DNA from: Candidatus Pacearchaeota archaeon
Lineage (GTDB): Archaea; Nanobdellota; Nanobdellia; Pacearchaeales; GW2011-AR1
NCBI GenBank assembly: GCA_019659125.1
Contig: JAIFVX010000003.1
Coordinates: 807-64,806, forward strand
Reading direction: 5' to 3'
Length of the DNA: 64,000 nucleotides
A program made the translations under genes and the position numbers. Under the pieces are notes generated by a model. That model had not been told where the DNA came from and did not search any database. It worked only from the letters and a program-made list of their open reading frames with translations. This document shows positions 5,032 to 54,139 of this stretch, one piece after another. The stretch's first letter is position 1, and each line of letters opens with the position of its first letter.

Positions 5032-5038
5032 AGCGCAA

Positions 5039-5509
5039 ATGCAGATCCAGCAAATGGCATTCGTCCTCGTAGCATTGCTCATCTTCTTTTCTATGGTTGC
5101 ACTTATCTATGCATCCTTGAGGATTTCCCATCTTAAGGGTCAGGCAGGGACGCTTGCACAGGCACAAGCACAGGAGCTTGCGAGGACGCTTGCATCAGCA
5201 CCTGAACTGCAAGGAAAATGTGACTCGTGCATCGATACTGATAAGGCACTTATATTAAAGGAAAAGCTGAACAGTGAATATAAGGGATTATGGAAAGTCA
5301 GCTATCTACGAATTGAGCGACTCTACCCCAATGCCCAGAACAGGGAGTGCACGCGAATGAACTATCCTGATTGCTCAACACTTACCCTTATTAATGGTAG
5401 TTTGGGGACTGCACAAGGAGCGTTTGTTAACCTTTGCAGGTATGTTGCTGAGAAGAAGTATATTCAGTGCGATATAGGGAAAATCTATGTTTCTCTGGAG
5501 GCCCCGTGA
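5039..5509 (+). CDS. Pilin-like / N-terminally anchored secreted protein
   Basis: Start moved to MQIQQMAFVLVALLIFFSMVALIYASL (ATG 5039, 8 nt after the upstream stop). The track start at 4973 would overlap the upstream gene by 59 nt. Confidence 0.5.
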   Translation: MQIQQMAFVLVALLIFFSMVALIYASLRISHLKGQAGTLAQAQAQELARTLASAPELQGKCDSCIDTDKALILKEKLNSEYKGLWKVSYLRIERLYPNAQNRECTRMNYPDCSTLTLINGSLGTAQGAFVNLCRYVAEKKYIQCDIGKIYVSLEAP

Positions 5510-5985
5510 GAGGGCAGGAAGAGGTTGCAGGATTTGTTGTTATTGTAGTTATTGTCTTAGTGATATCAGTCATTGTTCTTGGGGTAATGGTGAGACAGAG
5601 GCCAGAGCCATTAACGAACAGCCAGGATATCTATAATTTCCTTGAAGCAAGCCTTTCATACACAACATCATGTGCTACCAGCTTTGAGCCCGCTTATCTT
5701 ACTCTTGGTGAATTATTTGAAAAGTGCAGGTCGGGAAGTATTTGCATTTCAGGGAAGTCTGCATGCAGTGTTGCCAATGAAACGCTCAGAGGTATCGTAG
5801 GAGCAAGCTGGAACATAAGTTCTGGAAGCAGTGTCAGAGGATATAGGTTTGTAGCGCGCTATAAGACTAACACGAGTGATAGTGTCATTGTATCTCTTTC
5901 GCAAGGAAACTGCACAGGAAATTTCAAGGAGTCGGAATATCCTTATCCATATCCTATCAAAAGCTCATTTAGATTATGTTCCTAG
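5506..5985 (+). CDS. Type IV pilin-like protein (class III signal peptide)
   Basis: GTG at 5506 forms a GTGA overlap with the upstream stop and follows GGAGG (5497-5501). N-terminus V/M-RGQ|EEVAGFVVIVVIVLVISVIVLGV. Confidence 0.55.
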   Translation: MRGQEEVAGFVVIVVIVLVISVIVLGVMVRQRPEPLTNSQDIYNFLEASLSYTTSCATSFEPAYLTLGELFEKCRSGSICISGKSACSVANETLRGIVGASWNISSGSSVRGYRFVARYKTNTSDSVIVSLSQGNCTGNFKESEYPYPYPIKSSFRLCS

Positions 5986-7022: not shown

Positions 7023-9641
7023 GTGATAAATTTCAAGAAAATTGCGTCTGTAGTAACGAGCACTTTGATGTTGAGTTCTACGGTGGCTTTGGCCGCTGCA
7101 GCTAACTACCCAGCACCTTTCGTACAGAATGGAGCTGGCAACGTAGCTATAGTTTATGGTTCAAACTTACCAGCAGGATCAACTGACTTAGTAGCTGTTG
7201 CCGAGATCCAAGGATATTTGGCAACACAGCTTGCAAGACAGACAGCAACAGGAGGAACGAGTGTAACTGGTGTTTCAGTTACAGGAGAGGCAGCACCATT
7301 ATTTACAGGAACAAAACTCTATGTAAATGATTCATTGAACGCTGTCAAGACTGTAATGACAAAGACCGAACTGCCAACCGTTTTGGCTTCTGGAACTTTC
7401 TCAGGTAACGTGGATGCAACCTATACTCAAACTATTGATATAGGATCAAACCCACAAGTTACTTTTGCAAAGCAACCAACAAGCTCAGACGACCCACAGT
7501 TTGGACTTACACTGTCAACGAGCACTGCAAACTATCTTTACAACACATCGGTTACCTTCAACAAAGCAATAAACTTCACTCATGCCGACTCCAAGGGAGC
7601 AGATATGACCTTGTTCGGACAGAAGTTTACCGTGGCTTCTTCAACAGATACAACCAACCTAGTGTTGTTGAAAACTGCTGAAAAGATAAGCCTTACCAGC
7701 GATGCACCTTCACAGAAGGTCACCATCGGAGGAAAGGAATACACGATCGAATTAATCTCTGCATCTGACACTTCAGCTACTGTACGAGTTACAGCAAGCG
7801 ATGGAACTTCGGAAACGAAGGAGGTTAATGAGAACAGCTCAAAGAAGGTCAACGGAATCACAGTAGCCGTAACGAACGCTGACGAGACTAACTTAAAGTT
7901 GTCCGCATCAGTAATCGCAGGCGCTGAGAAAGTGACGCTAACAGATGGAAGCGCAGTAGCAATTGGAGAAGACTCCAAAGTAGTTGATGGAACGAAAGTT
8001 ACTCTAACAGGAGGCACTACGGCCACTACCAAAATAACGGTAAGTACCTATGCATCCGACTCAGACCATGACGCACTATTGCCGGGTCAAGAGTTTGTCA
8101 GCCCTACATTCGGAACCTTTAAGATAGACTTCGCTAGCCTTAATGAGCCGGAAAACAGCTCTGCTCGAGAGAACATTAAAATTGTCGCAAGTGGAGATGA
8201 TAAAATGATTGTTGACTTTATGCCAGGATACGCATCAAGCAACAAAGCAATCCAGTTCGCTATCAACAAGAGTACAGGTAGCAGTGGATTCCAACTTCAA
8301 TCCGACAGTGATGGACATAACATCACCGTACAGGAGAGAAGGAAGGCTTTCAAGAACGATTACATCGTTCTTGGAAATGAGGAAAGCGGACGCTTACTAA
8401 AAGTCCAGACCATCACAAACCAGACATCTGGTTACAACCAGGATAAAGTCAGCATGACTGATGTCTTCACAGGAGACACCTATGATGCTACATTAACTGG
8501 TGAAGGATCTGGAAGTATTGTTGTTGGAGGAAAGTCGTATAACCTCATCTATAACGGTACGCCGTCAGATGACTCAAACTTTGTACGATTGAACTATCCA
8601 GACAGTACAGGAAGCGGGGATGTAGTTTTGTTACCAACTTTGAGAACATCAAAGGGAGCAAAAGTTGCATTCTACAAGCCTATCAACAACTTATCGATTG
8701 ATGACTGGGATGGAGACGGAACTGATGCAGCAACGTTGAAATTCCCTAACGGGGATGGATACACGGATGTAGCAACAGTTGCAGGTCTTAACGCAGCAGG
8801 TATCGGAATGACTATTGGAGGCAGCGCGCTTAACGCGTCTCTTCCAGCAGTAACGGCAACTGTAGGTAGATTTACCTACAACTTTACGTATTCCGGTCCT
8901 AACCAAACAACTATTTACTTGCTTTCTCCTGACGGAGGAAACATTGTATCGCCAGCTATTCAGCTTATCGAGGAAAAAGATGACAACTCACAATTCCACG
9001 GAATGGTTGTCACCCTTGAGGGAGCAGGAAGCGGTGATCAAGGAGTAGGAGTTAACGACGTCTCAAGAACCTGGCAAAACGACGCTACCTGGGACCAAAT
9101 TACACTTGCTAGCAATAGCAAGATCAGTAAGGAGGCAGACCTTTACGGTACTATCGTAAGCATAGATTCTTCCGACTCAGACCAGAAATCTACAACCATC
9201 AGTTACCCTGATGAACAAGTTTACGCTAACATATACGCAGCTGAAAAGACTGCAGATATTTCAGGCGGAACAACTTCATCATCTGGAGGATCTGTACGAG
9301 AACTTGGCTCAGTCCTAGTGACTGACAGCGAGGCCTCATCAGTGTCTTCAAAGAATCTGATTGTTGTTGGTGGAAGTTGCGTTAACAAAGTTGCTGCTGA
9401 ATTGCTTGGAGGCTCTCTTTGCGGAGCAGACTTCGAGTCAAAGACAAGCGTTGGATCTGGTTCATTCCTGATTCAGTCGTTCAGTCGATCAAGCGGCGCT
9501 GTTGCAACACTCGTAGCAGGTTACAATGCAGCTGACACAGTCAATGCTGCACGATTCCTAGACACGCACACGGTAGATACTACTGTAGGCAAGAAGTACA
9601 AGGGATCATCTGCAACAAGTGCTGACCTAGTAACAACGTAA
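7023..9641 (+). CDS. S-layer protein (Methanococcales MJ0822-type)
   Basis: GTG start. Signal peptide ...STVALAAAANYPAPFVQNG, Thr/Ser/Gly-rich body, C-terminal LIVVGGSCVNKVAAELLGG ... LVAGYNAADTVNAARFL typical of this family. Confidence 0.7.
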   Translation: MINFKKIASVVTSTLMLSSTVALAAAANYPAPFVQNGAGNVAIVYGSNLPAGSTDLVAVAEIQGYLATQLARQTATGGTSVTGVSVTGEAAPLFTGTKLYVNDSLNAVKTVMTKTELPTVLASGTFSGNVDATYTQTIDIGSNPQVTFAKQPTSSDDPQFGLTLSTSTANYLYNTSVTFNKAINFTHADSKGADMTLFGQKFTVASSTDTTNLVLLKTAEKISLTSDAPSQKVTIGGKEYTIELISASDTSATVRVTASDGTSETKEVNENSSKKVNGITVAVTNADETNLKLSASVIAGAEKVTLTDGSAVAIGEDSKVVDGTKVTLTGGTTATTKITVSTYASDSDHDALLPGQEFVSPTFGTFKIDFASLNEPENSSARENIKIVASGDDKMIVDFMPGYASSNKAIQFAINKSTGSSGFQLQSDSDGHNITVQERRKAFKNDYIVLGNEESGRLLKVQTITNQTSGYNQDKVSMTDVFTGDTYDATLTGEGSGSIVVGGKSYNLIYNGTPSDDSNFVRLNYPDSTGSGDVVLLPTLRTSKGAKVAFYKPINNLSIDDWDGDGTDAATLKFPNGDGYTDVATVAGLNAAGIGMTIGGSALNASLPAVTATVGRFTYNFTYSGPNQTTIYLLSPDGGNIVSPAIQLIEEKDDNSQFHGMVVTLEGAGSGDQGVGVNDVSRTWQNDATWDQITLASNSKISKEADLYGTIVSIDSSDSDQKSTTISYPDEQVYANIYAAEKTADISGGTTSSSGGSVRELGSVLVTDSEASSVSSKNLIVVGGSCVNKVAAELLGGSLCGADFESKTSVGSGSFLIQSFSRSSGAVATLVAGYNAADTVNAARFLDTHTVDTTVGKKYKGSSATSADLVTT

Positions 9642-18374: not shown

Positions 18375-19112
18375 TTACTCCGTGTTGTATAGAAACATGA
18401 TATAATATCCTGCCCCTATAAGGCTTGCAAGCTGAATTGCTGACAGGCCTAGAATAAGTGGATTAAGTGGCTTTATAAATTCTATTGCAATTCTGAATGT
18501 AAGGTATCCTATAACAAAGAGCTTGAACCTCACTCCAGGCTTTAATCTCCATTTTCTTTCAATCCCAAGAATAACAAGCCAGAGAATTCCAAGAAATACA
18601 ATTTCGTAAAGAGAAGTAGGATGACGTGGAAGACCATCTCCCTGGTCAAATGCCCAGGGGACTGAAGAGACAATGCCCACTGTTCTATCACTAACACCTG
18701 TGAGAAAACAACCAATCCTTCCAATAATCATTCCTAATATTAACGGATATGTGAACAAGTCTCCTGAAGGTCTTTTTTCTCCAATGATTTTCTTGGTTAT
18801 CTCTACTCCGATAATTGCTCCCAGAATGCCTCCAACGATCGTCTTTCCCTGGATGTAGTAGAGGAAAGAAGAAGGGTGGAAAAATGAAGCAGGATCTTCA
18901 AGGCTTGCGAGTAACCGTGAAAAAAGCAGTGCTCCAATAGCTCCTCCTAGAATGATGCTTTCCCGATTAGAAAAATGAAGCGGATCCCTCTGCTTCTTCT
19001 GAAGATGGAAATAAAAAACAAATGCGAAGAAAAATGCAAGAATTTCAAACACGGAATGAGAAGGAATAGCAACACTTCCTATATGGAAGTTAATAGGGAA
19101 CTTCATTTCCAT
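18375..19112 (-). CDS. lgt: Prolipoprotein diacylglyceryl transferase (Lgt)-like membrane protein
   Basis: GRIGCFLTG ... PWAFDQGDGLPRHPTSLYE resembles the Lgt signature (GR[IL]GNF ... HPxxLYE). Polytopic. Confidence 0.6.
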   Translation of the reverse strand: MEMKFPINFHIGSVAIPSHSVFEILAFFFAFVFYFHLQKKQRDPLHFSNRESIILGGAIGALLFSRLLASLEDPASFFHPSSFLYYIQGKTIVGGILGAIIGVEITKKIIGEKRPSGDLFTYPLILGMIIGRIGCFLTGVSDRTVGIVSSVPWAFDQGDGLPRHPTSLYEIVFLGILWLVILGIERKWRLKPGVRFKLFVIGYLTFRIAIEFIKPLNPLILGLSAIQLASLIGAGYYIMFLYNTE

Positions 19113-34039: not shown

Positions 34040-34225
34040 ATGAATATTCATAGTAAAAAGATAGTGCAATACATCTCCAAAGAAGAGGTAGTAACTAGTT
34101 CTGAAATAGCAAAACTTTTGAAGGTCTCATGGAATACTGCTGAGAAATATCTTCTTGAACTTCTTATCGAGGGAAAAGTCAGGCGTATAAAAAAAGAGGG
34201 GGTTAACATATGGCTCGGAAAATGA
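34040..34225 (+). CDS. Small winged-helix DNA-binding protein
   Basis: 61 aa. VTSSEIAKLLKVSWNTAEKYLLELLIEGKVRRI. Confidence 0.55.
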   Translation: MNIHSKKIVQYISKEEVVTSSEIAKLLKVSWNTAEKYLLELLIEGKVRRIKKEGVNIWLGK

Positions 34226-34971
34226 AACGGGGGCAGATGGCGATATGGATTATCCTCGCCATTGTGTTAGTGGGGACAATGATCTTGTTCTTCACCGTCG
34301 AAAGAAAGGTAAACACGACGCAACCAGAGATACTCAGCCCTGAACTTCAAGTCAGGCAATGCACCAAGGAGGCAGTGAATTCCGTTCTTGCACAAACGCT
34401 TCCGCATGGAGGATTTGTCGAGCCGAGAAATACAAAGCTCTACAAGGGAATCAATATATCTTACCTATGCGACAACATAGGATTCTACAAGCCTTGCATC
34501 AATCAGCATCCTCTTCTCATCAAGGAAATGAACGCTGAGATCAAGGAGAAGATCACCCCTGAACTTCAGACATGCTTCTCTATTATTGATGGAGATTATG
34601 CCTCTCGAAATGCGGAGTTGGAGACTGGTCCATTAAGCTTTGATGTGAGACTCGCTCCTGGAAGAGTGTATGTAGATATCAATAGAAGTATGACTATTAC
34701 ACAGAGAGGATCAAGCAGGACATTCTCATCATACCAGGTTGAAATCCCTAGCCCTGCATATGATCTTGGCTCTATCGCTTCAGAGATTGCAAGTCAGGAA
34801 GCAAAATACTGCTACTTTGAGTATGTTGGATACATGCTTCTTTACCCTTCATTCAGGATATCAAAGACAGCATTACCTGATTCCACTAAGATTTACACTA
34901 TCACTGACAAAAAATCAGGAGATGCTATGAATATCGCCATCAGGAGTTGTGCGATACCTCAAGGAATATGA
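34222..34971 (+). CDS. Type IV pilin-like protein (class III signal), paralog of 38780..39586
   Basis: ATG 34222 forms an ATGA overlap with the wHTH stop (alternative ATG 34210). MKRGQ|MAIWIILAIVLVGTMILFF. Conserved Cys pattern shared with its paralog. Confidence 0.6.
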   Translation: MKRGQMAIWIILAIVLVGTMILFFTVERKVNTTQPEILSPELQVRQCTKEAVNSVLAQTLPHGGFVEPRNTKLYKGINISYLCDNIGFYKPCINQHPLLIKEMNAEIKEKITPELQTCFSIIDGDYASRNAELETGPLSFDVRLAPGRVYVDINRSMTITQRGSSRTFSSYQVEIPSPAYDLGSIASEIASQEAKYCYFEYVGYMLLYPSFRISKTALPDSTKIYTITDKKSGDAMNIAIRSCAIPQGI

Positions 34972-37900
34972 GAACGAACATTATTGTAGGCATTGAAATC
35001 ATACTTCTTATCAGCATGAGCTTTGCAATCTCGTATACTCTTCATGCTGAAGATAGCGTTGCATATGATTACAACCAATCTCCTAAAGATTTAGCATTTA
35101 AGATTATAAATCACCTATTCGGAAAGGGGATAGTTTCGGCACTCGACTCCTCTGATTTGAAGAATGGAGTCTCAACCTGTCTGCTTTCAAAGAATAATAA
35201 GGTATGCCAAGAATATCCCTCCAGTGAATGCGGGGGCAAGTGTACAACTGCATGCATTCCTTCTTCAAAATCCCAAGTTTCTGCATGCAGTGTTGGAACG
35301 TGCGTCGATCCTGTTGAAGGTATATGTCAGCCTGGATCCCCTAAATCTGCATGTGAGAATGATGGGGGACAATGGTATAATGATCCCAACGGAAATATAG
35401 CCCAATGCAAGCTTGGATGTTGCCTCCTTGGAGACCAGGCAAGTTTCATCACTTCACAACAATGTTCGCGTAAATCTGTGCTTCTTGGTGTCACGAGCAA
35501 TTTCAAGCCCGAGATAGGAAGTGAGATCGAATGCCTTGCTCTTGCAAAGACGCAAGAAGAGGGGGCATGCGTCTATGAACAAGACTTTCAAAAAAGCTGC
35601 ACGTTTACTACAAAGGCTTCATGCCTGCAGAAGACAGGAAGAGCAGATTCATTTTATCCAGGATTGCTGTGCTCAAATCCAGCATTGAACACGACATGCA
35701 AGAAACAGGCACGGACTGCATGTGTCGAGGGCAAAGATGAGATCTATTGGTTTGACAGCTGTGGAAACAGGGAGAATATCTATGATGCTAATAAGGCTCA
35801 GAGCTGGAATGAAGGTAAAGTATTAGCAAAACAAGACAGCTGTACACTTGATGCTGGAAAAAATCTTCTTGCCCATCAAAGCAGTTGCGGAAACTGCAAT
35901 TATTTCCTCGGCAGTATATGTGGTCAAAAAGCAGGAAATCAGAAATTATCTGACTCTTCACAAAATGTTGTTTGCAAAGATCTATCCTGTACTGATGCCC
36001 AAGGGAAAAAGAGAAAAAATGGGGAGAGCTGGTGCGCCTATCAGGGTTCTATCGGCGTCGATGAGAAGAACAATCGGGCCACTGATACCCCTGGCAGCAG
36101 CCATTATAGGGAAGTATGTATCGATGGAGTAATACAAACAGAAGCCTGCGCTGATGCACGAAGAGAGGTATGCATCGAATCGCAGACGCAGACAAATTAT
36201 GGAAAAATATCTTCCGCTGCATGCAGGGCTAATCTCTGGACTCAATGCTCTGAGTACAACACCGAAGTCACGGGAGAAGGAAATGCACGAATAGCATCGG
36301 AAAAGCAGAGAGATAACAAATGCTCACAAAATCCTGATTGCTTTGTCAAAAAAGTAGATATTTCTGACAATTTCAAATTCAATCTCTGTGCTCCACGGTA
36401 TCCTCCCGGATTTGATCTTTCGGCCAACTCTGATAGTGCTGAAATGGTGTGCGGGCTTGCTAGCCAGACATGCACTGCCATCTATGTAAAGAAGCTCTTT
36501 TCCGGATGGAAGTGCGAAGCGAATTGTGAATGTGAAGATGCTATCTTCACGGAAAAGATGAATGATCTTTGTATTAGTTTAGGGGATTGTGGGGCAAAAG
36601 TCAATTATAACGGACAATACAGAAAAAATTACCAGGCCTATAACGCTGAAAAAGTTCCTGACTCTTATATTGAAGGATTGAAGAAATATTCTGCAACGGT
36701 AACTGGACAATTCGCGGATGCTGGTTCATATAAGCAATTTTACACAAGCCTAGGGATTCCAAGCGATCTAGGGGCTGCAGGAAAACTTAAGGATCAAAAC
36801 GAGGCTGCACTCAAGGCTGCACTCGTAACAAGTGGCTCGGCAGGCATCCTTGTGCTTGCAGCATATCATGCAGGAATCGCATCATCATTTGGTGCTGGAG
36901 GGGCTGCAATCATCTCAAAGATTCCTATCTTGTCAAGCCTTGTCGGAAAAAGCGCAGGAGTATCGTCTGCTGTAGCAGATCCTACAGGAGAATTTGGAGT
37001 AGCTGCCAATCCCTCTATCGCCGCCTATGGAGGTGCAGTTGCGGGAGCATCTCTAGGTCTTGCTGTCACTTCCCTTTTGATTAAGTTCACAGGCATAGGT
37101 CCAGGGCTTGACCCATACGTGACCAACTCCTTACTTGTTGCAGGGGCTTATTCAGGAGCAATCATTGGAGCAAATATTGGAAGTGGGGGTACAGGGATAT
37201 TCGGTGGACTAGGTGCAAGTGGATCTGCATCACTTGCTTTTGCATGGGTCATAGGAGTCGCAATTGTCCTAGCGATCGTCATATTCAAACTCTTGGGTAT
37301 CGGGAAGACAAAAGAGGTGAAGGTTGAATTCCAGTGCCAGCCCTGGCAGGCACCTACTGGAGGAAAAGCGTGCAAGCAATGTGGAAAAGATGGATTTCCA
37401 TGTACGCCGTATGCCTGCCATTCTCTTGGACAGACATGCGAGTTCGTGAATGAGGGATCGGGACAGGAAGCATGTATTGATAATAATCCTAATGATGCTT
37501 CTCCTCCAGTCATCCATCCACTCAAGAAAGTATTAGCTGAGGGATACAGTTATCAGGACGAAAATGAGAATGGTGTGAAACTTGTGGGACCTGAAGAGTG
37601 TATCAAAGCATATACTCCTGTAACCTTTGGAGTTGGCCTTGACGAACCCGGACAGTGTAAGTATGATGTAGAACATACGCAGTCCTATGATGATATGGAA
37701 TTTTATGTAGGGGATAGAAATCTCTACATCAGGAACCACAGCATGGCATTCACACTTCCTTCGCTTGAAAGTTTGGGGCTTCCAGGGTATGAACCAAGCA
37801 GGAAAGCAAACTATAACATGTACATCAGATGCGAGGATACGAATGGAAATAAGAACGAGAAAGAATATGCGATAAACTTCTGCGTGAAGCCTGGAGAAGA

Positions 37901-38783
37901 CCTCACACCTCCATCCATTTCCCCTGGGGATTACAACGAGTATGTTGCATATAACGCCACGTCAGTTGTTGCAAGCATCTACACAAGCGAGCCAGCTGAA
38001 TGCAAATGGGATACTAATGATAAGGAGTATGATGCTATGGCCTACTCATGGGTGTGCGATAGCGGGTTTGAAAACCAGACGTTTCTTGGATGGAAGTGCT
38101 CAGCAACACTTCCTATAAACAACGATTCTACCTTCTCTGTGCGATGTAGCGATCAGCCCTGGCTGAATGCAAGTACAAAGAGAAATGAAAATCATGAGAG
38201 CTATCCACTTACCTTCAAGAAATCGAAGATTCCTCTTACTATTACCTCCCTGACTCCTGACAACTCGACTATTATCGCCGGCACTGATGCTGTCTCAGTT
38301 GAGGTAGTTGCTAAAGTATCGGGAGGTGCTGATGGGACAGCGAAATGTAGTTACAAGATCGATAATTATTATGTTGATTTCCTGGACACCTTGAAGAGTG
38401 AGAGCAGGAATGTTTTCAACCAGTTCACTCCAGGAGCAAAAGTGCTTGCCGTAAAATGTGAGGATCGGGCAGGAAATAGAGCGGAAAGAACTGCAAGATT
38501 CAGCATTGAGCTTGACAGTGCAGCTCCTGAAGTCACGCGAGTCTACGAAAAGAGCGGTTCACTGGTTGTCATTACCAATGAGCCTGCACGTTGCTCATTT
38601 GTCCATTTCCTAAACAGAACTAGGGATACCTGCAGCTTCCAGTTCCCAGAAGGGGAAGTGTTGGAGGGGAGTGATTTGATCCATACGGCGCCTCTCGAGC
38701 AATTACCCTATTATATCAAGTGCAAGGATCGATTTGAGAATATAGCGGGAGCATGCAGCATGATCGTGCAGGCAAAGGTATGA
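34968..38783 (+). CDS. Giant (1271 aa) Cys-rich membrane/surface protein, fusion of 39583-type and 41836-type proteins
   Basis: ATGA overlap start. Layout: signal anchor IILLISMSFAISY, ~550-aa Cys-rich domain, ~170-aa Gly/Ala-rich hydrophobic region, then a ~480-aa C-terminal region with 4 repeats. Confidence 0.7.
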   Translation: MRTNIIVGIEIILLISMSFAISYTLHAEDSVAYDYNQSPKDLAFKIINHLFGKGIVSALDSSDLKNGVSTCLLSKNNKVCQEYPSSECGGKCTTACIPSSKSQVSACSVGTCVDPVEGICQPGSPKSACENDGGQWYNDPNGNIAQCKLGCCLLGDQASFITSQQCSRKSVLLGVTSNFKPEIGSEIECLALAKTQEEGACVYEQDFQKSCTFTTKASCLQKTGRADSFYPGLLCSNPALNTTCKKQARTACVEGKDEIYWFDSCGNRENIYDANKAQSWNEGKVLAKQDSCTLDAGKNLLAHQSSCGNCNYFLGSICGQKAGNQKLSDSSQNVVCKDLSCTDAQGKKRKNGESWCAYQGSIGVDEKNNRATDTPGSSHYREVCIDGVIQTEACADARREVCIESQTQTNYGKISSAACRANLWTQCSEYNTEVTGEGNARIASEKQRDNKCSQNPDCFVKKVDISDNFKFNLCAPRYPPGFDLSANSDSAEMVCGLASQTCTAIYVKKLFSGWKCEANCECEDAIFTEKMNDLCISLGDCGAKVNYNGQYRKNYQAYNAEKVPDSYIEGLKKYSATVTGQFADAGSYKQFYTSLGIPSDLGAAGKLKDQNEAALKAALVTSGSAGILVLAAYHAGIASSFGAGGAAIISKIPILSSLVGKSAGVSSAVADPTGEFGVAANPSIAAYGGAVAGASLGLAVTSLLIKFTGIGPGLDPYVTNSLLVAGAYSGAIIGANIGSGGTGIFGGLGASGSASLAFAWVIGVAIVLAIVIFKLLGIGKTKEVKVEFQCQPWQAPTGGKACKQCGKDGFPCTPYACHSLGQTCEFVNEGSGQEACIDNNPNDASPPVIHPLKKVLAEGYSYQDENENGVKLVGPEECIKAYTPVTFGVGLDEPGQCKYDVEHTQSYDDMEFYVGDRNLYIRNHSMAFTLPSLESLGLPGYEPSRKANYNMYIRCEDTNGNKNEKEYAINFCVKPGEDLTPPSISPGDYNEYVAYNATSVVASIYTSEPAECKWDTNDKEYDAMAYSWVCDSGFENQTFLGWKCSATLPINNDSTFSVRCSDQPWLNASTKRNENHESYPLTFKKSKIPLTITSLTPDNSTIIAGTDAVSVEVVAKVSGGADGTAKCSYKIDNYYVDFLDTLKSESRNVFNQFTPGAKVLAVKCEDRAGNRAERTARFSIELDSAAPEVTRVYEKSGSLVVITNEPARCSFVHFLNRTRDTCSFQFPEGEVLEGSDLIHTAPLEQLPYYIKCKDRFENIAGACSMIVQAKV

Positions 38784-39586
38784 GACGCAACAATTATAAA
38801 CAAAATTATTCTTTGACTGGCATGCAATTCGGCAAAAGAGGACAGCTTGCGATTATCATTATTATAGCCATTGTCATTATCGCTGCCGTTCTTATCTTTT
38901 TTTTCTATCCACGGATAGGGCCAAGCATATCAACTACCTTCTCTCCCACTAAATATCTGGAATCATGCATCGATCCAGTATTTTCCTCGACCTTGACAAC
39001 AGTAACGAAACAGGGAGGATATCGCGATCCTCAAGGGTTTGCATTATACCAGGGGGAGAAGATAAAATATCTCTGTTACACTTCTGAATATTATACAACC
39101 TGCTCTGTACAGCAACCTATGATCAAGAATCATGTTGAGGATGAACTTGCTCAAGCATTGCGGGAAAAGGCACAAGAGTGCATGCAGGGATTAAAGAGTG
39201 AATACCAATCACGAGGATACAGTGTCTCTTCAGGCCCTGTAAGTAGTGATGTCTCAATTATCCCTGGAAAAATACAGGTTCATTTTATAGCACCTCTAAC
39301 GGTAACAAAGAATGGCGCAACGCAAAGCTTCAAGGGGTTTGATGTCGAGAAAAGCAGCCAGTTATATGATCTCTTGTTCACTGCAAGCAGCATCATCGAT
39401 TACGAATCTTTCTATGGAGATTCTGAGACTACCTTATATCTCCAGTATTATCCTGACTTGAAGATTGAGAAAACAAAACTGAGCGATGGGACAAAGATTT
39501 ATACACTCTCAAATGTTGTGACTAAAGAAACATTTACCTTTGCCTCTAGGAGCCTTTCATGGCCCCCAGGGTATGGATTAGAATGA
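38780..39586 (+). CDS. Type IV pilin-like protein (class III signal), paralog of 34222..34971
   Basis: ATGA overlap start (alternative ATG 38822, MQFGKRGQ|LAIIIIIAIVIIAAVLIFFF). Aligns with its paralog, e.g. GGYRDPQGFALYQGEKIKYLC versus GGFVEPRNTKLYKGINISYLC. Confidence 0.6.
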   Translation: MRRNNYKQNYSLTGMQFGKRGQLAIIIIIAIVIIAAVLIFFFYPRIGPSISTTFSPTKYLESCIDPVFSSTLTTVTKQGGYRDPQGFALYQGEKIKYLCYTSEYYTTCSVQQPMIKNHVEDELAQALREKAQECMQGLKSEYQSRGYSVSSGPVSSDVSIIPGKIQVHFIAPLTVTKNGATQSFKGFDVEKSSQLYDLLFTASSIIDYESFYGDSETTLYLQYYPDLKIEKTKLSDGTKIYTLSNVVTKETFTFASRSLSWPPGYGLE

Positions 39587-41112
39587 TCACAAAAACTCAC
39601 ATGATTCGCCTCGGCATCTTTATTGCAGCATTTGCAGTACTACTCGCATCAGCGTCAGCCTTGAATGCCACTGTATGCTGTGAGAAGACTACCTCTGGAG
39701 AGTTTTGCCAAAACGTCCCTAGCAGCCAATGCGCTCCAGGTTCAAGACAGGTGCAAAGCTCATGTGATTCTGTTTCCTATTGCAAGCCAGGAGTATGCTA
39801 TGATTCTAAGGAAGGGACGTGCTCGAGCAAGACTTCGCAATTAGTATGCAACGCAAACAATGGGACATGGAGTGAGCAGTCGCCTCCTCAATGTGCCTTG
39901 GGATGTTGCACACTCGGGGACCAGGCAGCGTTTGTCTCTCTTGTTCGATGCAAGAAGCTCTCAGGATTTCTTGGTCTGCAAACAAATTATAACAGCGGTA
40001 TAAAAGATGAGACACAATGTATCCTCTCTGTACAAAACCAGGATAAGGGTGCATGTGTTTATACATTTGAATTCGAAAAAACATGTAAGTTCACGACGAG
40101 GGCTGAATGCTCTTCAGGCGTGAATGGAACTGGAAAAGGAGCATTCTTTAAAGGGAAACTATGCTCGGCTGAAGAGCTCGGCACTACGTGCGGACCGACA
40201 AAGCCAGCAAAGACGACATGTATTCCGGGAAAAGATGAGGTGTACTTTGTTGACACGTGTGGAAATGCGGCAAATATCTATGATGCCAGCAAAGTAAATG
40301 ATCCAGACTACTGGACCAATATAAAAGATAAGAGCGAATCCTGTAATCCGAGCGGTGCGAATGCAAACTCCGCCGGATGCGGGAATTGCAATTACTTGCA
40401 GGGAAGTGTATGTAGACCTTCCGAAACAGGAAAAAAAGCTACTTATGGAAGCACTATGTGCGCTAACTTGAACTGCGTGAACACGCAGAACGGTAAATCA
40501 TACAAACATGGAGAGAGCTGGTGCGTGTACAATGATGAGGGAACTACGGGAGAAGGAAAAGATGCTGTAGGAAGCAGATTCTATAAGCATATTTGCATCA
40601 ACGGCGAGGAAGTTCTTGAGCAATGTGCTGACTTCAGACAGGAGGAATGTATCGAAGACAAAATACAGGTACCGCAAGGAACGTTCTCACAGGCAGCATG
40701 CAGGGTCAACCGATGGCAGGATTGTGTTGCACAAACTGATCAGCTTGATTGCCAGAATAAGGACAAGCGTGACTGCTACTGGCAACCTGATGTGAAGCTT
40801 CCTCAATATGAGGCGAATGAGACTATCACGGGAACATGCCTTCCCATAAATCCTCCAGGGTTGAAATTCTGGGAGGGTGAAGAGGCAAAGACTATCTGTG
40901 CGCAGGGCAATGCAGCATGCGTCGTGACTTTTGAGAAAGGATTGTTTGGAGGAGAGAAATGCTCGAAGAATTGCGAGTGCCTTGATGGAACATGGCAGAA
41001 AGAGAGAAGCGATCTCTGCGTAAGCTTGGGAGACTGCGGACCAAATGTAAACTGGATCGGGCAACAAGGGTACAAGCCAGGGTATAATATCTCTATAACA
41101 AAAATAAAGTAG
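39583..41112 (+). CDS. Secreted Cys-rich protein (509 aa), homolog of the N-terminal half of 34968..38783
   Basis: ATGA overlap start. Signal peptide LGIFIAAFAVLLASASALNA. About 43 Cys by my count. Collinear conserved blocks (GCC.LGDQA.F, C.GKDE.Y..D.CGN..NIYDA, CGNCNY, GESWC, LC.SLGDCG). Confidence 0.7.
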   Translation: MITKTHMIRLGIFIAAFAVLLASASALNATVCCEKTTSGEFCQNVPSSQCAPGSRQVQSSCDSVSYCKPGVCYDSKEGTCSSKTSQLVCNANNGTWSEQSPPQCALGCCTLGDQAAFVSLVRCKKLSGFLGLQTNYNSGIKDETQCILSVQNQDKGACVYTFEFEKTCKFTTRAECSSGVNGTGKGAFFKGKLCSAEELGTTCGPTKPAKTTCIPGKDEVYFVDTCGNAANIYDASKVNDPDYWTNIKDKSESCNPSGANANSAGCGNCNYLQGSVCRPSETGKKATYGSTMCANLNCVNTQNGKSYKHGESWCVYNDEGTTGEGKDAVGSRFYKHICINGEEVLEQCADFRQEECIEDKIQVPQGTFSQAACRVNRWQDCVAQTDQLDCQNKDKRDCYWQPDVKLPQYEANETITGTCLPINPPGLKFWEGEEAKTICAQGNAACVVTFEKGLFGGEKCSKNCECLDGTWQKERSDLCVSLGDCGPNVNWIGQQGYKPGYNISITKIK

Positions 41113-41179
41113 ATTTTGTACTTTCTCAATAGTGATAACAAATAGTAAGATTTAAATATTCATCATTAGTATGATTTCT

Positions 41180-41794
41180 ATGAGAAATTCAATCAAAAAG
41201 AATCTTGCAATGATTGTCCTAGGTTCTACTATGGCTGCCGGACTATCAGGATGCGGTGCTGCAATGCAGATGGCTGCTCCTTTCTCTAAGACTGTAGAAG
41301 CTGGTATGGCTCTTAATGCGGCAGGTCAGGCAGTAACTGCCTATGAAGTTGCTGAAATGAATAAAACTGAGGTCAACGTTACGGTACAGCAGCCTCAACC
41401 TAATCATCCTGTATATCATAAATATCTTGGAGCACTCGAGATCTGCAACGACCCGGTAGGAGGGACCATTGTACTTACTACCTGCAAAGAATTCAAGGAT
41501 TATGATGGTGATGGGATTATAATGTTTCCCCATGAATATAGAGGGAAAAAAGAACGTTTTTCTAAAAACGAGAATATTTCTATCGCTGTTGGTGTAGAGA
41601 ATAAGGTAAGTGGCATTCATTATATTCTTAAGGATGGGGAAAATAAAACAATTAAGGACTTCTTGATAGAACAGGACTCGTATGGAACGCATGACGACTT
41701 TAAAGAGGGAGAGCTTGAAACAGGCACCTATACTGCTGAATTTTATCTCAAAAACAGGCCTCTTGGAAAGCTCAAATTTACTGTAGAGGACTAA
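41180..41794 (+). CDS. Putative lipoprotein (lipobox LSGC)
   Basis: MRNSIKKNLAMIVLGSTMAAGLSGC. ATG 41180 fits TATA-like tttaaata at 41151-41158 (track start is 41171). Confidence 0.5.
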   Translation: MRNSIKKNLAMIVLGSTMAAGLSGCGAAMQMAAPFSKTVEAGMALNAAGQAVTAYEVAEMNKTEVNVTVQQPQPNHPVYHKYLGALEICNDPVGGTIVLTTCKEFKDYDGDGIIMFPHEYRGKKERFSKNENISIAVGVENKVSGIHYILKDGENKTIKDFLIEQDSYGTHDDFKEGELETGTYTAEFYLKNRPLGKLKFTVED

Positions 41795-41806
41795 CTCTCG
41801 AGAATA

Positions 41807-41814
41807 TTTATAAA
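41807..41814 (+). promoter_or_regulatory. TATA-like box for the 708-aa gene
   Basis: atatttataaag is centred ~25 nt upstream of ATG 41836. Confidence 0.45.
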
Positions 41815-41835
41815 GAACTCTTTTCTTCATAGGGA

Positions 41836-43962
41836 ATGCAAAAGGTGCGCAGAAAAATAGGTGTTTTTCCAGTAGTTTTCATCCAACTATTCCTTCTTGT
41901 CAGCATGAGTTTTGCTGTTGCGTTCATCATTTCAAGCGAGAGTGTCTCTGCTGTCGATCCTGGAATTACTAACGTTCCTACAAAGTCTGCCCCACTCCCT
42001 AATAGGCCGTCTATCGGAGATGATACACCTAATTTGGGACAAGCGGCGCCGGCCGCTGCAGGAACGGGTGGTGGTACCTTGACAAAGGCAACAGGAGGAA
42101 ATGCATTCAAGAATATCTATGGTGGACATCTGTTTGGCATTGGCCCTGAGAGTTCTCTTGTTGCAGGATTAGCATGGGCAGCGACTGCATATTTTGCAGT
42201 AAAACTAGTGGCAGGATTGTTTGGAGCAAGTCCAGGCCTTACCAATGCGCTTGCAACATCGGTTGGAGTTGCTGCAGGGGTTGGTGGATTCCTTCAGTCT
42301 GCATGGGCTGGACAGGCAACTACCTTAGCGAATAATCCTATTCTTAGTATTTTTGTTGAGCATCCGTGGATTACTAGCATTGGGATTGGAGTGGTTATTT
42401 TTGTATTAACGTATAGATCTGAGAAAAAACAACTTGTTAGCTTCCAATGCCTGCCTTACGAGCCCCCATTAGGAGGAAGCCAATGCGAGCAGTGCAATAA
42501 AGATCCTTTTAGACCCTGCTCTGAATATCGATGCCAATCCCTGGGGCAGGCATGCAAGCTCTTGAATCCTGGAACGACAAATGAGAAGTGCACGTGGGTA
42601 AGCAAGTTTGATGTCAACTCTCCGGTGATTGAAGTCTGGAACCTGGCACTTTCTCCTCAAGGATTAAAATTCACACCCGATGATGCAATACGTCCTCCAA
42701 ACCGTGGAGTAAAAATACAGGCATCAAACGGTGGATGCTTGCCTGCATATACTCCATTGAAGTTTGGACTGCAGACGAATGAACCTGCACAGTGCAAGAT
42801 CGATTACAACAATAACGCATCGTTCAAAGACATGCAATATTATTTTGGAGAAAGCAATTATTATGAATACAATCATACGCAGACATTACGTCTTCCAGGA
42901 CCAGATACTGGAGTGCAAGGAACGCTATCACCGATCTTACAGAATGATGGGACGTTCAACCTCTATGTTCGATGCCAGGATGCAAATGGAAATGCTAATG
43001 TTGATTTGTTTGCTATAAACTTCTGCGTTGATAAGGGTCCTGACACAACCCCTCCTTTGATTGAAGCAACTTCAATTATTTCAGGAAGTCCTGTCCGGTA
43101 CAACGCTGATAATGTGCCGATGCAAGTGTTCGTGAATGAACCTGCACAATGTAAATGGAGCAGATCGGATAAGGATTACAAGGATATGGAGAACTCAATG
43201 CAGTGCGGCACTGAAAGCTATCAGGTCAATGCAAACTTGCAATACACCTGCTCGGGAAACCTTACAGGAATCAAGAACAGAGAGAGCAATACATTCTACT
43301 TCAGATGTGAAGACCAGCCAAACAAAGCTGAGAGCCAAAGGAATCCTATGCGGCAGAGTACTGCTCTTGTACTACGAGGAAGCCAGCCATTGAACATTGT
43401 GAGCGCACAGCCTAACGGAACAATCTATGGAAGCACTGAGACAATTCCTATGACTCTTTCAGTTCAAACGGATGATGGAAGCGATGAAGGGAAAGCAACC
43501 TGCTACTTCTCATCAACAGGAGCACAAAACAGTTACACCTCAATGATTAATACCAATGACTTCAAGCATAGTCAGCCTCTTGACCTGCCTTCAGGAACAT
43601 ACACTTATTTCTTCAGATGTATTGATGCTGGAGGAAATGCTGCAGATGCTAAGATCTCATTTAGTGTTATCGCTGATAGAGAAGCACCTAGTGTAACACG
43701 AGTATATCGGGATAGCACCGATAGTATGAAAGTCATAACCAATGAAGATGCTGAATGTGCGTACTCATTAAATAGCTGCGACTTCACTCTTAAAGAAGGA
43801 ACTGCGTTGCTTTCAACGCCAAGCAATAAAGTTGCCCATTTCGGACCTTGGAAACCAGGAGTGACGTACTACATAAAATGTAAGGACTTGCTAGGAAATG
43901 AACCAAGTCCTAACGAGTGCAGTCTTATTGCGAGTGCAACGCAGATTGCGAAGCAGCTCTAG
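41836..43962 (+). CDS. Membrane/surface protein (708 aa), homolog of the C-terminal half of 34968..38783
   Basis: Signal anchor LFLLVSMSFAVAF (compare LLISMSFAISY), Gly/Ala-rich hydrophobic region, then FQCLPYEPPLGGSQCEQC... and 4 repeats collinear with the fused protein. Confidence 0.7.
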   Translation: MQKVRRKIGVFPVVFIQLFLLVSMSFAVAFIISSESVSAVDPGITNVPTKSAPLPNRPSIGDDTPNLGQAAPAAAGTGGGTLTKATGGNAFKNIYGGHLFGIGPESSLVAGLAWAATAYFAVKLVAGLFGASPGLTNALATSVGVAAGVGGFLQSAWAGQATTLANNPILSIFVEHPWITSIGIGVVIFVLTYRSEKKQLVSFQCLPYEPPLGGSQCEQCNKDPFRPCSEYRCQSLGQACKLLNPGTTNEKCTWVSKFDVNSPVIEVWNLALSPQGLKFTPDDAIRPPNRGVKIQASNGGCLPAYTPLKFGLQTNEPAQCKIDYNNNASFKDMQYYFGESNYYEYNHTQTLRLPGPDTGVQGTLSPILQNDGTFNLYVRCQDANGNANVDLFAINFCVDKGPDTTPPLIEATSIISGSPVRYNADNVPMQVFVNEPAQCKWSRSDKDYKDMENSMQCGTESYQVNANLQYTCSGNLTGIKNRESNTFYFRCEDQPNKAESQRNPMRQSTALVLRGSQPLNIVSAQPNGTIYGSTETIPMTLSVQTDDGSDEGKATCYFSSTGAQNSYTSMINTNDFKHSQPLDLPSGTYTYFFRCIDAGGNAADAKISFSVIADREAPSVTRVYRDSTDSMKVITNEDAECAYSLNSCDFTLKEGTALLSTPSNKVAHFGPWKPGVTYYIKCKDLLGNEPSPNECSLIASATQIAKQL

Positions 43963-53545: not shown

Positions 53546-54139
53546 CTAGAACAAGCCACCCTTAAGGATCTCTAACTTGAATGAGGTTGCCCCGATGATA
53601 TCTCCCGAAGCCTTATCCTGGACATCGACAAATACTTTCTGTGTACAACTGGCCGTGCCTTTAGGAACATTCACGTCTATGTTCGCAAGTGCAACAGAAA
53701 AGTCCTTGAGTGCATCAAACTGTAAGAATTGATCAAGACGGGTTTCAAACAATGCTTTTGTCTTGGCCACTCCCAGCTTGTTGGCGCTGATGCAGTTGCT
53801 TCCAGTAGCTTCCTCAAGCGAGAGCTTGTATTGCAATTGATCTCGTGCATTGATTCTGGCTCCATCAGGATTCCTCGCTCCTAGGCCAATCGTCAAACTG
53901 CTGTCAGGTCGCACCGTTGCAGTCCTATCCTTGCCTAGGTTGACAATGACATCATCACTATCATCAGTAAATAAGGAGGCAATTGCATTCTGGACCTTGC
54001 TTTGCAATACATCGACTGTTGCCGTCGTTCCTGTAAATATATTCTTAATGAGCACAAGACCGAGGATAAGCATTGACATTGCCAAGACAACAATAACGAT
54101 CGTACTTACAGAAAGCTCAATCGCTGCCTTTCTTCTCAT
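53546..54139 (-). CDS. Pilin-like protein (class III signal-like N-terminus)
   Basis: MRRKA|AIELSVSTIVIVVLAMSMLILGLVLI. Confidence 0.5.
   Translation of the reverse strand: MRRKAAIELSVSTIVIVVLAMSMLILGLVLIKNIFTGTTATVDVLQSKVQNAIASLFTDDSDDVIVNLGKDRTATVRPDSSLTIGLGARNPDGARINARDQLQYKLSLEEATGSNCISANKLGVAKTKALFETRLDQFLQFDALKDFSVALANIDVNVPKGTASCTQKVFVDVQDKASGDIIGATSFKLEILKGGLF

What the first reader, a model, noticed from the sequence alone, without database searches (positions are those of the whole stretch)
34968..43962. Fusion/fission pair: one 1271-aa protein equals the 509-aa plus 708-aa proteins of the adjacent paralogous module
The N-terminal half of 34968..38783 aligns collinearly with 39583..41112. 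Shared blocks include:
- QCKLGCCLLGDQASF / QCALGCCTLGDQAAF;
- CVEGKDEIYWFDSCGNRENIYDA / CIPGKDEVYFVDTCGNAANIYDA;
- CGNCNYFLGSIC / CGNCNYLQGSVC;
- NGESWCAY / HGESWCVY;
- LCISLGDCGAKVNY / LCVSLGDCGPNVNW.

Its C-terminal half aligns with 41836..43962:
- FQCQPWQAPTGGKACKQCGKDGFPCTPYACHSLGQTCEF / FQCLPYEPPLGGSQCEQCNKDPFRPCSEYRCQSLGQACKL;
- YAINFCVKPGEDLTPP / FAINFCVDKGPDTTPP;
- APEVTRVYEKSGSLVVITNEPARC / APSVTRVYRDSTDSMKVITNEDAEC.

The fused protein's signal anchor (LLISMSFAISY) resembles that of the 708-aa protein (LLVSMSFAVAF), not that of the 509-aa protein. By Rosetta-stone logic, the 509-aa and 708-aa proteins should interact physically.
Basis: seen in the sequence. Interest (0 to 1): 0.75.

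Follow-up and report, generated by a model that had tools for sequence, protein, structure and literature searches.

The report
Split and fused archaeal surface-protein paralogs
A tiny symbiotic-type archaeon (Pacearchaeota) encodes the same uncharacterised surface protein twice in one operon, once as a single 1271-aa chain and once as a secreted cysteine-rich "head" plus a membrane-anchored "stalk"; related genomes switch the second copy between one and two chains, so head and stalk almost certainly work together.

Summary
The 1271-aa protein aligns collinearly with the 509-aa protein (36% identity, E=1e-90) and with the 708-aa protein (33%, E=5e-85). Its N-terminal helix matches that of the 708-aa protein.

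The region is a conserved six-gene operon of a Pacearchaeota (DPANN) archaeon with two paralogous modules:
- module 1: a pilin-like protein plus the fused chain;
- module 2: a pilin-like protein, the 509-aa head, a lipoprotein and the 708-aa stalk.

All three families are widespread and have no Pfam, NCBIfam or PDB sequence match. The 509-aa head gives a confident AlphaFold model with no Foldseek match, so its fold is apparently new. It has 43 cysteines, a Sec-type signal peptide and no anchor. The 708-aa protein has four hydrophobic helices and a string of Ig-like domains.

The key new result is that true orthologues of module 2 exist as one chain on at least nine other contigs. One of them is 72–75% identical to a split pair. 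This supports the Rosetta-stone inference far better than the paralog does.

The direction of change is unresolved; I lean slightly towards fission. The state changed at least three times, and not by a simple stop codon, because the N-terminal helix motif travels with the stalk. Function is inferred, not shown: a cell-surface complex.

The parts
34210..34971 (+). P1: 253-aa pilin-like protein of module 1. N-terminus MARKMKRGQ|MAIWIILAIVLVGTMILFF looks like an archaeal class III signal peptide.
   Evidence: ORF. Paralog of P2 (33% identity, E=2e-40). A P1-type gene precedes the fused gene in nearly all related loci. No Pfam or NCBIfam hit.
34968..38783 (+). Fused (F-type) protein, 1271 aa: N-terminal helix motif, cysteine-rich head, Gly/Ala-rich helices, Ig-like stalk.
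   Evidence: Identical to the NCBI hypothetical protein KW805_04820. At least 120 full-length homologues of about 1250-1350 aa. The 150 best cluster representatives listed are nearly all of fused size.
34980..35048 (+). N-terminal hydrophobic helix with the family motif (aa 5-27, IIVGIEIILLISMSFAISY).
   Evidence: Hydropathy. Motif (E/Q)I.LL.SMSFA.(S/A)(F/Y) is shared with the 708 family.
35112..36635 (+). Cysteine-rich head domain of the fused protein (aa 49-556), homologous to the 509-aa protein.
   Evidence: Invariant cysteines in alignment A1.
36807..37292 (+). Gly/Ala-rich hydrophobic helices (aa 614-775): one extra helix (TM0) plus three helices homologous to those of the 708-aa protein.
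   Evidence: Hydropathy. Alignment of aa 676-790 with aa 100-205 of the 708-aa protein.
37326..38780 (+). C-terminal tandem Ig-like region of the fused protein (aa 787-1271), homologous to aa 203-708 of the 708-aa protein.
   Evidence: Fold assignment by homology to the 708 model.
38753..39586 (+). P2: pilin-like protein of module 2 (277 aa as listed). The likely true start is the ATG at 38822, giving MQFGKRGQ|LAIIIIIAIVIIAAVLIFFF.
   Evidence: A P2-type gene precedes the 509-type gene in nearly all loci.
39583..41112 (+). 509-aa secreted head protein (S-type): Sec-type signal peptide (aa 1-27, ..ASA|LNATVCCEKT), 43 cysteines, no anchor.
   Evidence: Family is 60-82% identical to it across 120 homologues. 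AlphaFold2 pLDDT 88.7, pTM 0.71. No Foldseek match in PDB (best E=0.32) or BFVD (best E=0.28).
41171..41794 (+). D: 207-aa putative lipoprotein (..AAGLSGC..), present only in split loci.
   Evidence: Lipobox ORF at this position in at least 30 of 60 split loci and after none of the single-chain orthologues. No similarity to the fused protein.
41836..43962 (+). 708-aa membrane-anchored stalk protein (S-type). N-terminal motif helix aa 10-35; disordered linker aa 36-103; three helices aa 104-192; cysteine-containing tandem Ig-like domains aa 203-708.
   Evidence: AlphaFold2 pLDDT 85.1. Foldseek matches tandem Ig/FN3 ectodomains (4yfd E=2e-12, GhpA 9fly E=2e-10). Conserved N-x-T sequons at N346 (93%) and N527 (89%).

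Best explanation
The region 34210-43962 is a six-gene, same-strand cluster with overlapping or closely spaced genes, read here as an operon. It belongs to a Pacearchaeota (DPANN) archaeon and holds two paralogous modules of one uncharacterised cell-surface assembly.

Each module supplies four parts:
- a pilin-like protein (P1 or P2);
- a disulfide-rich head domain of about 480 aa;
- a set of Gly/Ala-rich membrane helices;
- a stalk of tandem Ig-like domains.

Module 1 puts head, helices and stalk on one 1271-aa chain. Module 2 puts the head on a secreted, anchorless 509-aa protein and the helices plus stalk on a 708-aa protein, with a small lipoprotein encoded between them.

Most likely mechanism (inferred): the 509-aa head is exported by Sec, its signal peptide is cleaved and it folds with many disulfides. 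It then docks non-covalently on the extracellular part of the 708-aa anchor, possibly helped by the lipoprotein. The result is the same structure that module 1, and the single-chain orthologues of module 2, build covalently. The assembly probably serves adhesion, host contact or envelope structure, together with the pilin-like proteins and the S-layer.

Evolution: the two modules come from an old tandem duplication. Module 2 has switched between one chain and two chains at least three times among relatives. The direction is not settled; I lean slightly towards fission from a fused ancestor.

Shown: homology, architecture, conservation, synteny, the existence of fused orthologues, and the fold predictions. 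Inferred: physical contact, localisation and function.
For: Homology and collinearity.

Organism and annotation: identical NCBI proteins are named hypothetical proteins of Candidatus Pacearchaeota archaeon. Archaeal markers occur in the window.

Operon conservation: the order P1, fused, P2, 509-type, (lipoprotein), 708-type recurs in related loci. In species-representative genomes, 46 loci have the 708-type gene near the 509-type gene, and 57 of 60 testable loci have the fused gene upstream.

Single-chain orthologues of module 2: L076 (1330 aa) and L078 (1382 aa). Also L085, L086, L087, L088, L089, L090, L095, L145 and L161.

Phylogeny: the module-2 clade has 100% bootstrap support in a concatenated tree of 148 taxa. 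Fused and split members mix inside subclades supported at 99-100%. L085 (fused) and L066 (split) are 72%/75% identical.

Split point: the 509-type tails stop (..AGV*) exactly where the fused orthologues continue (..AG(I/V)..TG(K/R)V..).

Anchorless head: Sec-type signal peptide, mature start TVCCEKT, basic C-terminal tail.

Extracellular location: 43 and 21 cysteines respectively, mostly invariant, conserved sequons, and an Ig-like fold matching cell-adhesion ectodomains.

Envelope context: the window's pilin-like genes at 3641-5985 and the S-layer-like gene at 7023-9641 lie next to this cluster in 41-51 of 160 related loci.
Against: - No direct test of contact between the 509-aa and 708-aa proteins was possible. 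No multimer prediction was available and the tool returns no PAE.
- In 12 of 58 determinable split loci, no 708-type gene lies within 5 kb of the 509-type gene, so tight linkage is not universal.
- Membrane topology is unresolved. The 708-aa protein has four hydrophobic helices and the fused protein five. The basic cluster after the last helix would, by the positive-inside rule, put the Ig-like region in the cytoplasm, which conflicts with its cysteines and sequons.
- No homologue has a known function, and no paper describing the family was found.
- The trees are neighbour-joining with a simple distance correction, and deep nodes are weakly supported.
Confidence: 0.7

Rival explanations
1. Polarity rival. 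The split state (509-type + 708-type) is ancestral for module 2, and perhaps for the whole family. All single-chain forms, including the 1271-aa protein, would then arise by fusion, with their N-termini later homogenised by gene conversion between the two modules.
For: - 708-type N-termini from different split clades share the same features (basic KRG(K) leader plus motif helix), which suggests one origin.
- Fused module-2 proteins are nested inside split clades at 99-100% bootstrap.
- Where both modules are fused, their N-terminal helices are unusually alike within a genome (0.49 against a background of 0.28; L078 0.71, L085 0.64).
- Gene fusion is generally commoner than fission (general knowledge).
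Against: - The outgroup paralog (module 1) was a single chain in all 81 complete examples.
- The earliest-branching module-2 lineage (L078/L087) is fused, though support is only 50-61%.
- A read-through fusion should leave the motif helix in the middle of the chain. No internal motif was found in any fused protein of the first 84 loci or in the 10 module-2 single chains checked from the metagenome contigs.
- It would need at least five independent fusions to the same architecture.
Confidence: 0.4
2. After the split the two products diverged in function. The 509-aa protein is released as a soluble secreted factor and does not bind the 708-aa protein, which works alone or with other partners.
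For: - The 509-aa protein has no anchor.
- Its family is more conserved (60-82% identity to it) than the head half of the fused family.
- In 12 of 58 determinable loci the 708-type gene is not nearby.
Against: - Orthologues at 72-75% identity carry both parts on one chain, so the two parts function side by side in close relatives.
- In 15 loci the two ORFs are less than 250 nt apart; measured gaps are 2-77 nt in five loci.
- Co-location is the rule: 46 loci.
Confidence: 0.15
3. The 509-aa and 708-aa proteins do not pair with each other but each joins the 1271-aa protein of module 1, or the pilin-like proteins or the lipoprotein, in a larger mixed complex.
For: - Both modules are kept together in 57 of 60 testable loci.
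- Each head-bearing gene is always preceded by its own pilin-like gene.
- The motif helix is shared by the fused and 708 families.
Against: This does not exclude 509-708 contact. The fused orthologues of module 2 show that these two particular parts belong together. Within-genome similarity of the motif helices is at background level for split genomes (0.286).
Confidence: 0.15
4. The split is an artefact or a decaying gene: a frameshift or stop in a once-fused gene of this assembly.
For: None beyond the formal possibility.
Against: - 120 listed homologues of each of the 509 and 708 families have matching lengths.
- Each product has its own start and its own N-terminal signal.
- An extra conserved gene lies between them.
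- The arrangement recurs in dozens of independent assemblies.
Confidence: 0.01

Closest known systems
Rosetta-stone (composite/component) protein pairs used to infer interaction (general knowledge: Marcotte et al. 1999; Enright et al. 1999)
   Same: One composite protein aligns collinearly and without overlap with two separate proteins. Composite forms also exist that are orthologous to the two components.
   Different: The composite in this window is a paralog in the same operon. The rearrangement is not a plain end-to-end join: the N-terminal helix motif precedes the head in the composite but heads the stalk protein in the split form. The state has toggled several times among close relatives.
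Large Ig-fold adhesin-like proteins encoded beside archaeal type-IV-filament loci, and the Aureispira grappling-hook protein GhpA (bioRxiv 10.64898/2026.04.22.720090, read; PDB 9fly, 9flw)
   Same: Tandem Ig-like beta-sandwich domains. Foldseek gives E=2e-10 to GhpA fragments. The genes are also neighbours of pilin-like genes.
   Different: The match is generic for tandem Ig/FN3 arrays; the best hit is a vertebrate receptor ectodomain, 4yfd. No filament ATPase or platform gene was identified among the window ORFs scanned against Pfam. The protein carries its own membrane helices and a head domain with no known fold. Pfam Big_13 scores only 21.3 bits against a cut-off of 27.
Two-component archaeal S-layers with a membrane-anchored beta-sandwich stalk and a separate outer protein (Sulfolobales SlaB/SlaA; from memory, not tested)
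   Same: A membrane-anchored stalk of beta-sandwich domains plus a separately secreted, anchorless outer protein. The cluster lies next to an S-layer-like gene in many relatives.
   Different: No sequence or fold comparison with SlaA or SlaB was made. The anchor here is an N-terminal multi-helix region, not a C-terminal helix. The genome has a separate S_layer_C protein (7023-9641).
Archaeal type IV pilin-like proteins with class III signal peptides
   Same: P1 and P2 start with a short basic leader ending KRGQ, followed by about 20 hydrophobic residues. Four more such genes are in the window.
   Different: No Pfam or NCBIfam pilin model matches them. The motif helix of the fused and 708 families lacks a fixed [KR][GA] cleavage spacing, so those proteins are not shown to be pilin-like.

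Membership tests
Fusion/fission (Rosetta-stone) pair | The composite aligns significantly, collinearly and without overlap with two separate proteins. | tested here: met
   E=1e-90 (aa 49-555) and E=5e-85 (aa 676-1269), one HSP each.
Fusion/fission (Rosetta-stone) pair | The components are real, separately maintained genes, not fragments of a broken gene. | tested here: met
   120 listed homologues of each component family have matching lengths and their own N-terminal signals. The arrangement recurs in dozens of assemblies.
Fusion/fission (Rosetta-stone) pair | A composite orthologous (not only paralogous) to the two components exists in another genome. | tested here: met
   Single ORFs of 1227-1405 aa fall in the module-2 clade (100% bootstrap). 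L085 is 72%/75% identical to the split pair of L066.
Fusion/fission (Rosetta-stone) pair | The two components physically interact. | not testable with these tools
   No multimer prediction is offered, and the structure tool returns no inter-residue error map. The interaction is inferred only.
Tandem Ig-like surface adhesin | Repeated Ig/FN3-like beta-sandwich domains. | tested here: met
   AlphaFold2 model, pLDDT 85.1. Foldseek gives 598 PDB matches with E<=0.001; the top hits are tandem Ig/FN3 ectodomains.
Tandem Ig-like surface adhesin | Membership of a curated Ig-like family (Pfam Big_13 or similar). | tested here: not met
   Big_13 scores 21.3 bits, below the cut-off of 27. The fused protein has no hit above threshold.
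Type IV pilin-like protein (class III signal peptide), for the N-terminal motif of the fused and 708 families | Basic leader ending in [KR][GA] at a fixed distance before the hydrophobic helix. | tested here: not met
   The distance from [KR][GA] to the conserved E/Q ranges from 3 to 13 residues. Only about a third to a half of members have such a dipeptide.
Type IV pilin-like protein, for P1 and P2 | Short basic leader, KRGQ-type cleavage motif, then about 20 hydrophobic residues. | tested here: inconclusive
   The motif is visible in the sequence, but no pilin model matches.
Class II fusogen / fusexin-like or other known disulfide-rich ectodomain, for the 509-aa head | Fold similarity to a solved or predicted structure. 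| tested here: not met
   Best Foldseek E=0.32 in PDB and E=0.28 in BFVD, with TM-scores of at most about 0.1. The PDB profile search found nothing.
Lipoprotein, for the 207-aa protein | N-terminal signal with a lipobox cysteine, and a modifying enzyme in the genome. | tested here: met
   A lipobox-like ..[AS]GC.. occurs in the window protein and in most homologues at this position. An Lgt homologue lies at 18375-19112 (PF01790, E=9e-26). Lipidation itself was not tested.

The most novel reading that the evidence does not exclude
The six genes, together with the pilin-like and S-layer-like genes that flank them in many relatives, encode a so far undescribed surface machine. It would be common to Pacearchaeota and allied DPANN archaea. 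It consists of a disulfide-rich head of a new fold, held on an Ig-like stalk and Gly-zipper membrane helices. It would serve as the organ of attachment to, or membrane contact with, a host cell. The repeated switching between one chain and two chains would mark a detachable head-stalk interface.
Probability: 0.25. Interest if true: 0.8.

Novelty: new variant of a known kind. Interest (0 to 1): 0.58.

Why it matters
How DPANN archaea such as Pacearchaeota build their envelope and contact other cells is largely unknown, and almost none are cultured.

This cluster is one of their most conserved unannotated loci. It gives at least 553 confirmed stretches in species-representative genomes and 4690 cluster representatives in the protein library.

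The fused and split orthologues give a ready-made, testable prediction of which proteins form a complex. The 509-aa head also offers an apparently new disulfide-rich fold for structural study.

As an evolutionary case, it shows a domain architecture flipping between one and two genes at 72–75% identity, by a rearrangement that moves the signal helix.

Tried and rejected
- **Family libraries.** Pfam, NCBIfam, PHROGs and PADLOC gave nothing above threshold for the six proteins.
- **PDB sequence profiles.** Nothing meaningful.
- **Foldseek of the head model.** No match in PDB or in viral structures. A fusogen-like or viral-glycoprotein reading therefore has no support.
- **Class III (prepilin) signal for the motif helix.** Rejected because the spacing is variable.
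- **The 207-aa protein as a remnant of the fused protein's middle part.** Rejected: no similarity.
- **Simple in-place fission or read-through fusion.**
  - No motif helix was found inside any fused protein of the first 84 loci or in the 10 module-2 single chains checked from the metagenome contigs.
  - There is no DNA homology between the post-head segment of L085 and the intergenic region plus 5' end of the 708-type gene of L066, in any frame.
- **Profile search of the representative library.** The profile took in the fused columns, so the 150 proteins listed were almost all fused-size. It gave family size but no outgroup.
- **Literature searches.** No paper on this family was found.
- **Membrane topology.** It could not be settled from hydropathy, charge and the model.
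Full report
**Observation**

The 1271-aa protein (34968-38783) aligns with the 509-aa protein (39583-41112) in one collinear stretch: aa 49-555 to aa 6-501, 36% identity, E=1e-90. It aligns with the 708-aa protein (41836-43962) in another: aa 676-1269 to aa 100-701, 33% identity, E=5e-85. A separate N-terminal match covers aa 6-34 to aa 13-41 (E=2e-4).

The genes just upstream of the two head-bearing genes are also paralogs (253 and 277 aa, 33% identity, E=2e-40). So the unit that was duplicated is a module, not a single gene. A 207-aa ORF between the 509-aa and 708-aa genes has no counterpart in the fused chain.

**Organism and context**

The three proteins are identical to NCBI hypothetical proteins KW805_04820, _04830 and _04840 of a Candidatus Pacearchaeota archaeon. 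The window carries archaeal markers: L10P with its insertion domain, a Cbf5-type pseudouridine synthase, Hjc and an S_layer_C protein.

The six genes lie on one strand with overlapping or closely spaced ends. In this genome they sit between a CobA-type gene and Hjc/AspRS. The same placement is seen in L003, and L001 shows the same neighbours with extra genes between.

**The three families**

Each query finds hundreds of relatives, none with a name or a Pfam domain above threshold.
- The fused family is about 1250-1350 aa long.
- The 708 family is about 685-990 aa long. The length variation lies in a low-complexity linker.
- The 509 family is about 500-560 aa long and is 60-82% identical to the query.

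A profile search of the representative library gave 4690 cluster representatives at E<=0.001. A scan of one genome per species gave at least 553 confirmed stretches, in MAGs mostly labelled Pacearchaeota, Woesearchaeota or Nanoarchaeota.

**Anatomy**

*The 509 family.* It has an ordinary Sec-type signal peptide. The mature N-terminus is TVCCE(K/Q)T, the C-terminal tail is short and basic, and there is no anchor. The window protein has 43 cysteines, most of them invariant. Its AlphaFold2 model is confident (pLDDT 88.7, pTM 0.71). The model matches nothing in the PDB (best E=0.32) or in BFVD (best E=0.28), so the fold appears to be new.

*The 708-aa protein.* It models at pLDDT 85.1, with this layout:
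- an N-terminal helix (aa 10-35);
- a disordered linker (aa 36-93);
- three helices (aa 104-192);
- a beta-rich region that Foldseek matches to tandem Ig/FN3 ectodomains: PTP-delta 4yfd at E=2e-12, GhpA 9fly, and cadherins.

Twenty-one cysteines in pairs, and two N-x-T sequons conserved in about 90% of members, argue for an extracellular location.

*The N-terminal helix motif.* The fused and 708 families share a motif in the N-terminal helix: (E/Q)I.LL.SMSFA.(S/A)(F/Y), often followed by VSA. Reciprocal profile searches hit 97 of 115 and 110 of 119 members at the N-terminus, and 0 of 120 members of the 509 family. The motif does not behave like a class III signal, because the spacing to a [KR][GA] dipeptide is variable.

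**Orthologous single chains**

A census of 80 species-level loci shows the order P1, fused, P2, 509-type, (lipoprotein), 708-type as the rule. In L076 and L078, however, module 2 is one ORF of 1330 or 1382 aa. Its halves are about 52% and 50% identical to the window's 509-aa and 708-aa proteins, against about 35% to the 1271-aa protein.

A metagenome scan seeded with these two found more single chains: L085, L086, L087, L088, L089, L090, L095, L145 and L161.

In a concatenated neighbour-joining tree (148 taxa, 941 columns, 100 bootstraps):
- module 2 forms a clade with 100% support;
- fused members are scattered within it;
- L078/L087 branch first (61%);
- L086/L076/L094 form their own group (100%);
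- L085 and L089 sit inside an otherwise split group (99-100%);
- L088/L161 group with the split L139 (100%).

L085 (fused) and L066 (split) are each other's closest relatives, at 72% and 75% identity in the two halves. The 509-type tails in that group end at ..AGV*, exactly where the fused chains continue with ..TG(K/R)V...

These orthologues are the strongest evidence that the 509-aa and 708-aa products act as one unit.

**How the change happened**

It was not a plain stop-codon gain or loss.
- In fused chains the motif helix precedes the head domain. In split loci the head has a plain signal peptide and the motif helix heads the stalk protein.
- No motif helix was found in the middle of any fused chain, neither among the first 84 loci nor among the 10 module-2 single chains checked from the metagenome contigs.
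- Between L085 and L066, DNA homology stops at the end of the head domain and resumes only at the first of the three shared helices. There is no match in any frame in between.
- Where both modules are fused, their N-terminal helices are unusually alike within a genome (0.49 against 0.28 identity; L078 0.71). This fits gene conversion at the 5' ends.

*Direction.* The outgroup (module 1) was fused in all 81 complete examples, and the first-branching module-2 lineage is fused. These points favour a fused ancestor and fission. Against that, the nesting of fused forms in split clades and the uniform 708-type N-termini favour secondary fusion. I put fission at about 55-60% and regard the direction as open. 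Whichever it is, the state changed at least three times.

**The lipoprotein**

A lipobox ORF lies between the two genes in at least 30 of 60 split loci, and my pattern missed some obvious cases. In 15 loci the two genes are less than 250 nt apart, leaving no room for it. None follows a single-chain orthologue. An Lgt homologue is present in the window. The lipoprotein may tether or bridge the free head, but this is a guess.

**Wider neighbourhood**

The window's pilin-like genes at 3641-5985 and its S-layer-like gene at 7023-9641 lie directly beside this cluster in 41-51 of 160 related loci. This places the cluster in a cell-envelope gene island.

**Function**

No homologue has a known role, and no paper on the family was found. 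The best-supported reading is a membrane-anchored, disulfide-stabilised surface assembly with two paralogous versions. It probably serves adhesion, host contact or envelope structure.

**Open problem**

Helix counts (four in the 708-aa protein, five in the fused protein) and the basic cluster after the last helix do not fit a simple topology with both the head and the Ig-like region outside the cell. This needs a proper topology predictor or an experiment.

**Verdict**

The fusion/fission phenomenon itself is ordinary. Its form here is unusual in two ways: the signal helix relocates, and close relatives toggle repeatedly between one and two genes. The protein system is uncharacterised, very widespread in these archaea, and includes an apparently new fold.

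Noticed in passing
window 18375-19112 (-): A homologue of bacterial prolipoprotein diacylglyceryl transferase (Lgt, PF01790, E=9e-26) in an archaeal genome. It fits the lipobox protein encoded at 41171-41794.
   Followed up: partly
window 3641-5985 (+) and 7023-9641 (+): Four consecutive genes have class III-like N-termini (MKRGQ|IHLSF.., MRKKG|FEFSF.., ..SRAQ|MQIQQMAF.., ..VRGQ|EEVAGF..), followed by an 872-aa S_layer_C protein. Their homologues lie right next to the fused/split cluster in 41-51 of 160 related loci, so in this genome the island has been broken in two.
   Followed up: partly
L031, L043, L054, L061 (between the 509-type and 708-type genes): A 336-337-aa multi-pass membrane ORF is inserted there in all four loci. 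The L054 copy matches glycosyltransferase family 4 (PF00953, E=1e-30), the family of the first enzyme of N-glycan assembly. This fits the conserved sequons in the stalk.
   Followed up: partly
L078 9057-9921: A nucleotidyltransferase/HepT-like (MNT-HEPN) toxin-antitoxin pair is inserted between the pilin-like gene and the single-chain module-2 gene.
   Followed up: partly
L059 and L082: These loci carry three modules: two pilin-like + fused pairs, followed by the split module. The module has therefore been duplicated again in some lineages.
   Followed up: no
L078 and L085, 5' ends of the two fused genes: Within one genome the first ~28-36 codons of the two fused paralogs are much more alike than the rest of the proteins: 64-71% against about 40% identity at protein level over 28 residues, and 76% DNA identity over 111 nt in L085. 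This suggests gene conversion or co-adaptation of the N-terminal helices.
   Followed up: partly
window 41836-43962 and 34968-38783, helix regions: Topology puzzle. The 708-aa protein has four hydrophobic helices and the fused protein five. A conserved basic cluster (YKKEKKK-like) follows the last helix. A simple reading would put the cysteine- and sequon-bearing Ig-like region inside the cell.
   Followed up: partly
window 53546-54139 (-): Another pilin-like ORF (MRRKA|AIELSVSTIVIVVLAM..), with a glutamate near the start of the helix. No homologue was found in the flanks of the related loci.
   Followed up: no
L056 and L065: The module-1 fused gene appears as two ORFs (585 + 367 aa and 875 + 383 aa). 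These may be assembly errors or pseudogenes rather than true fissions, but that was not examined.
   Followed up: no
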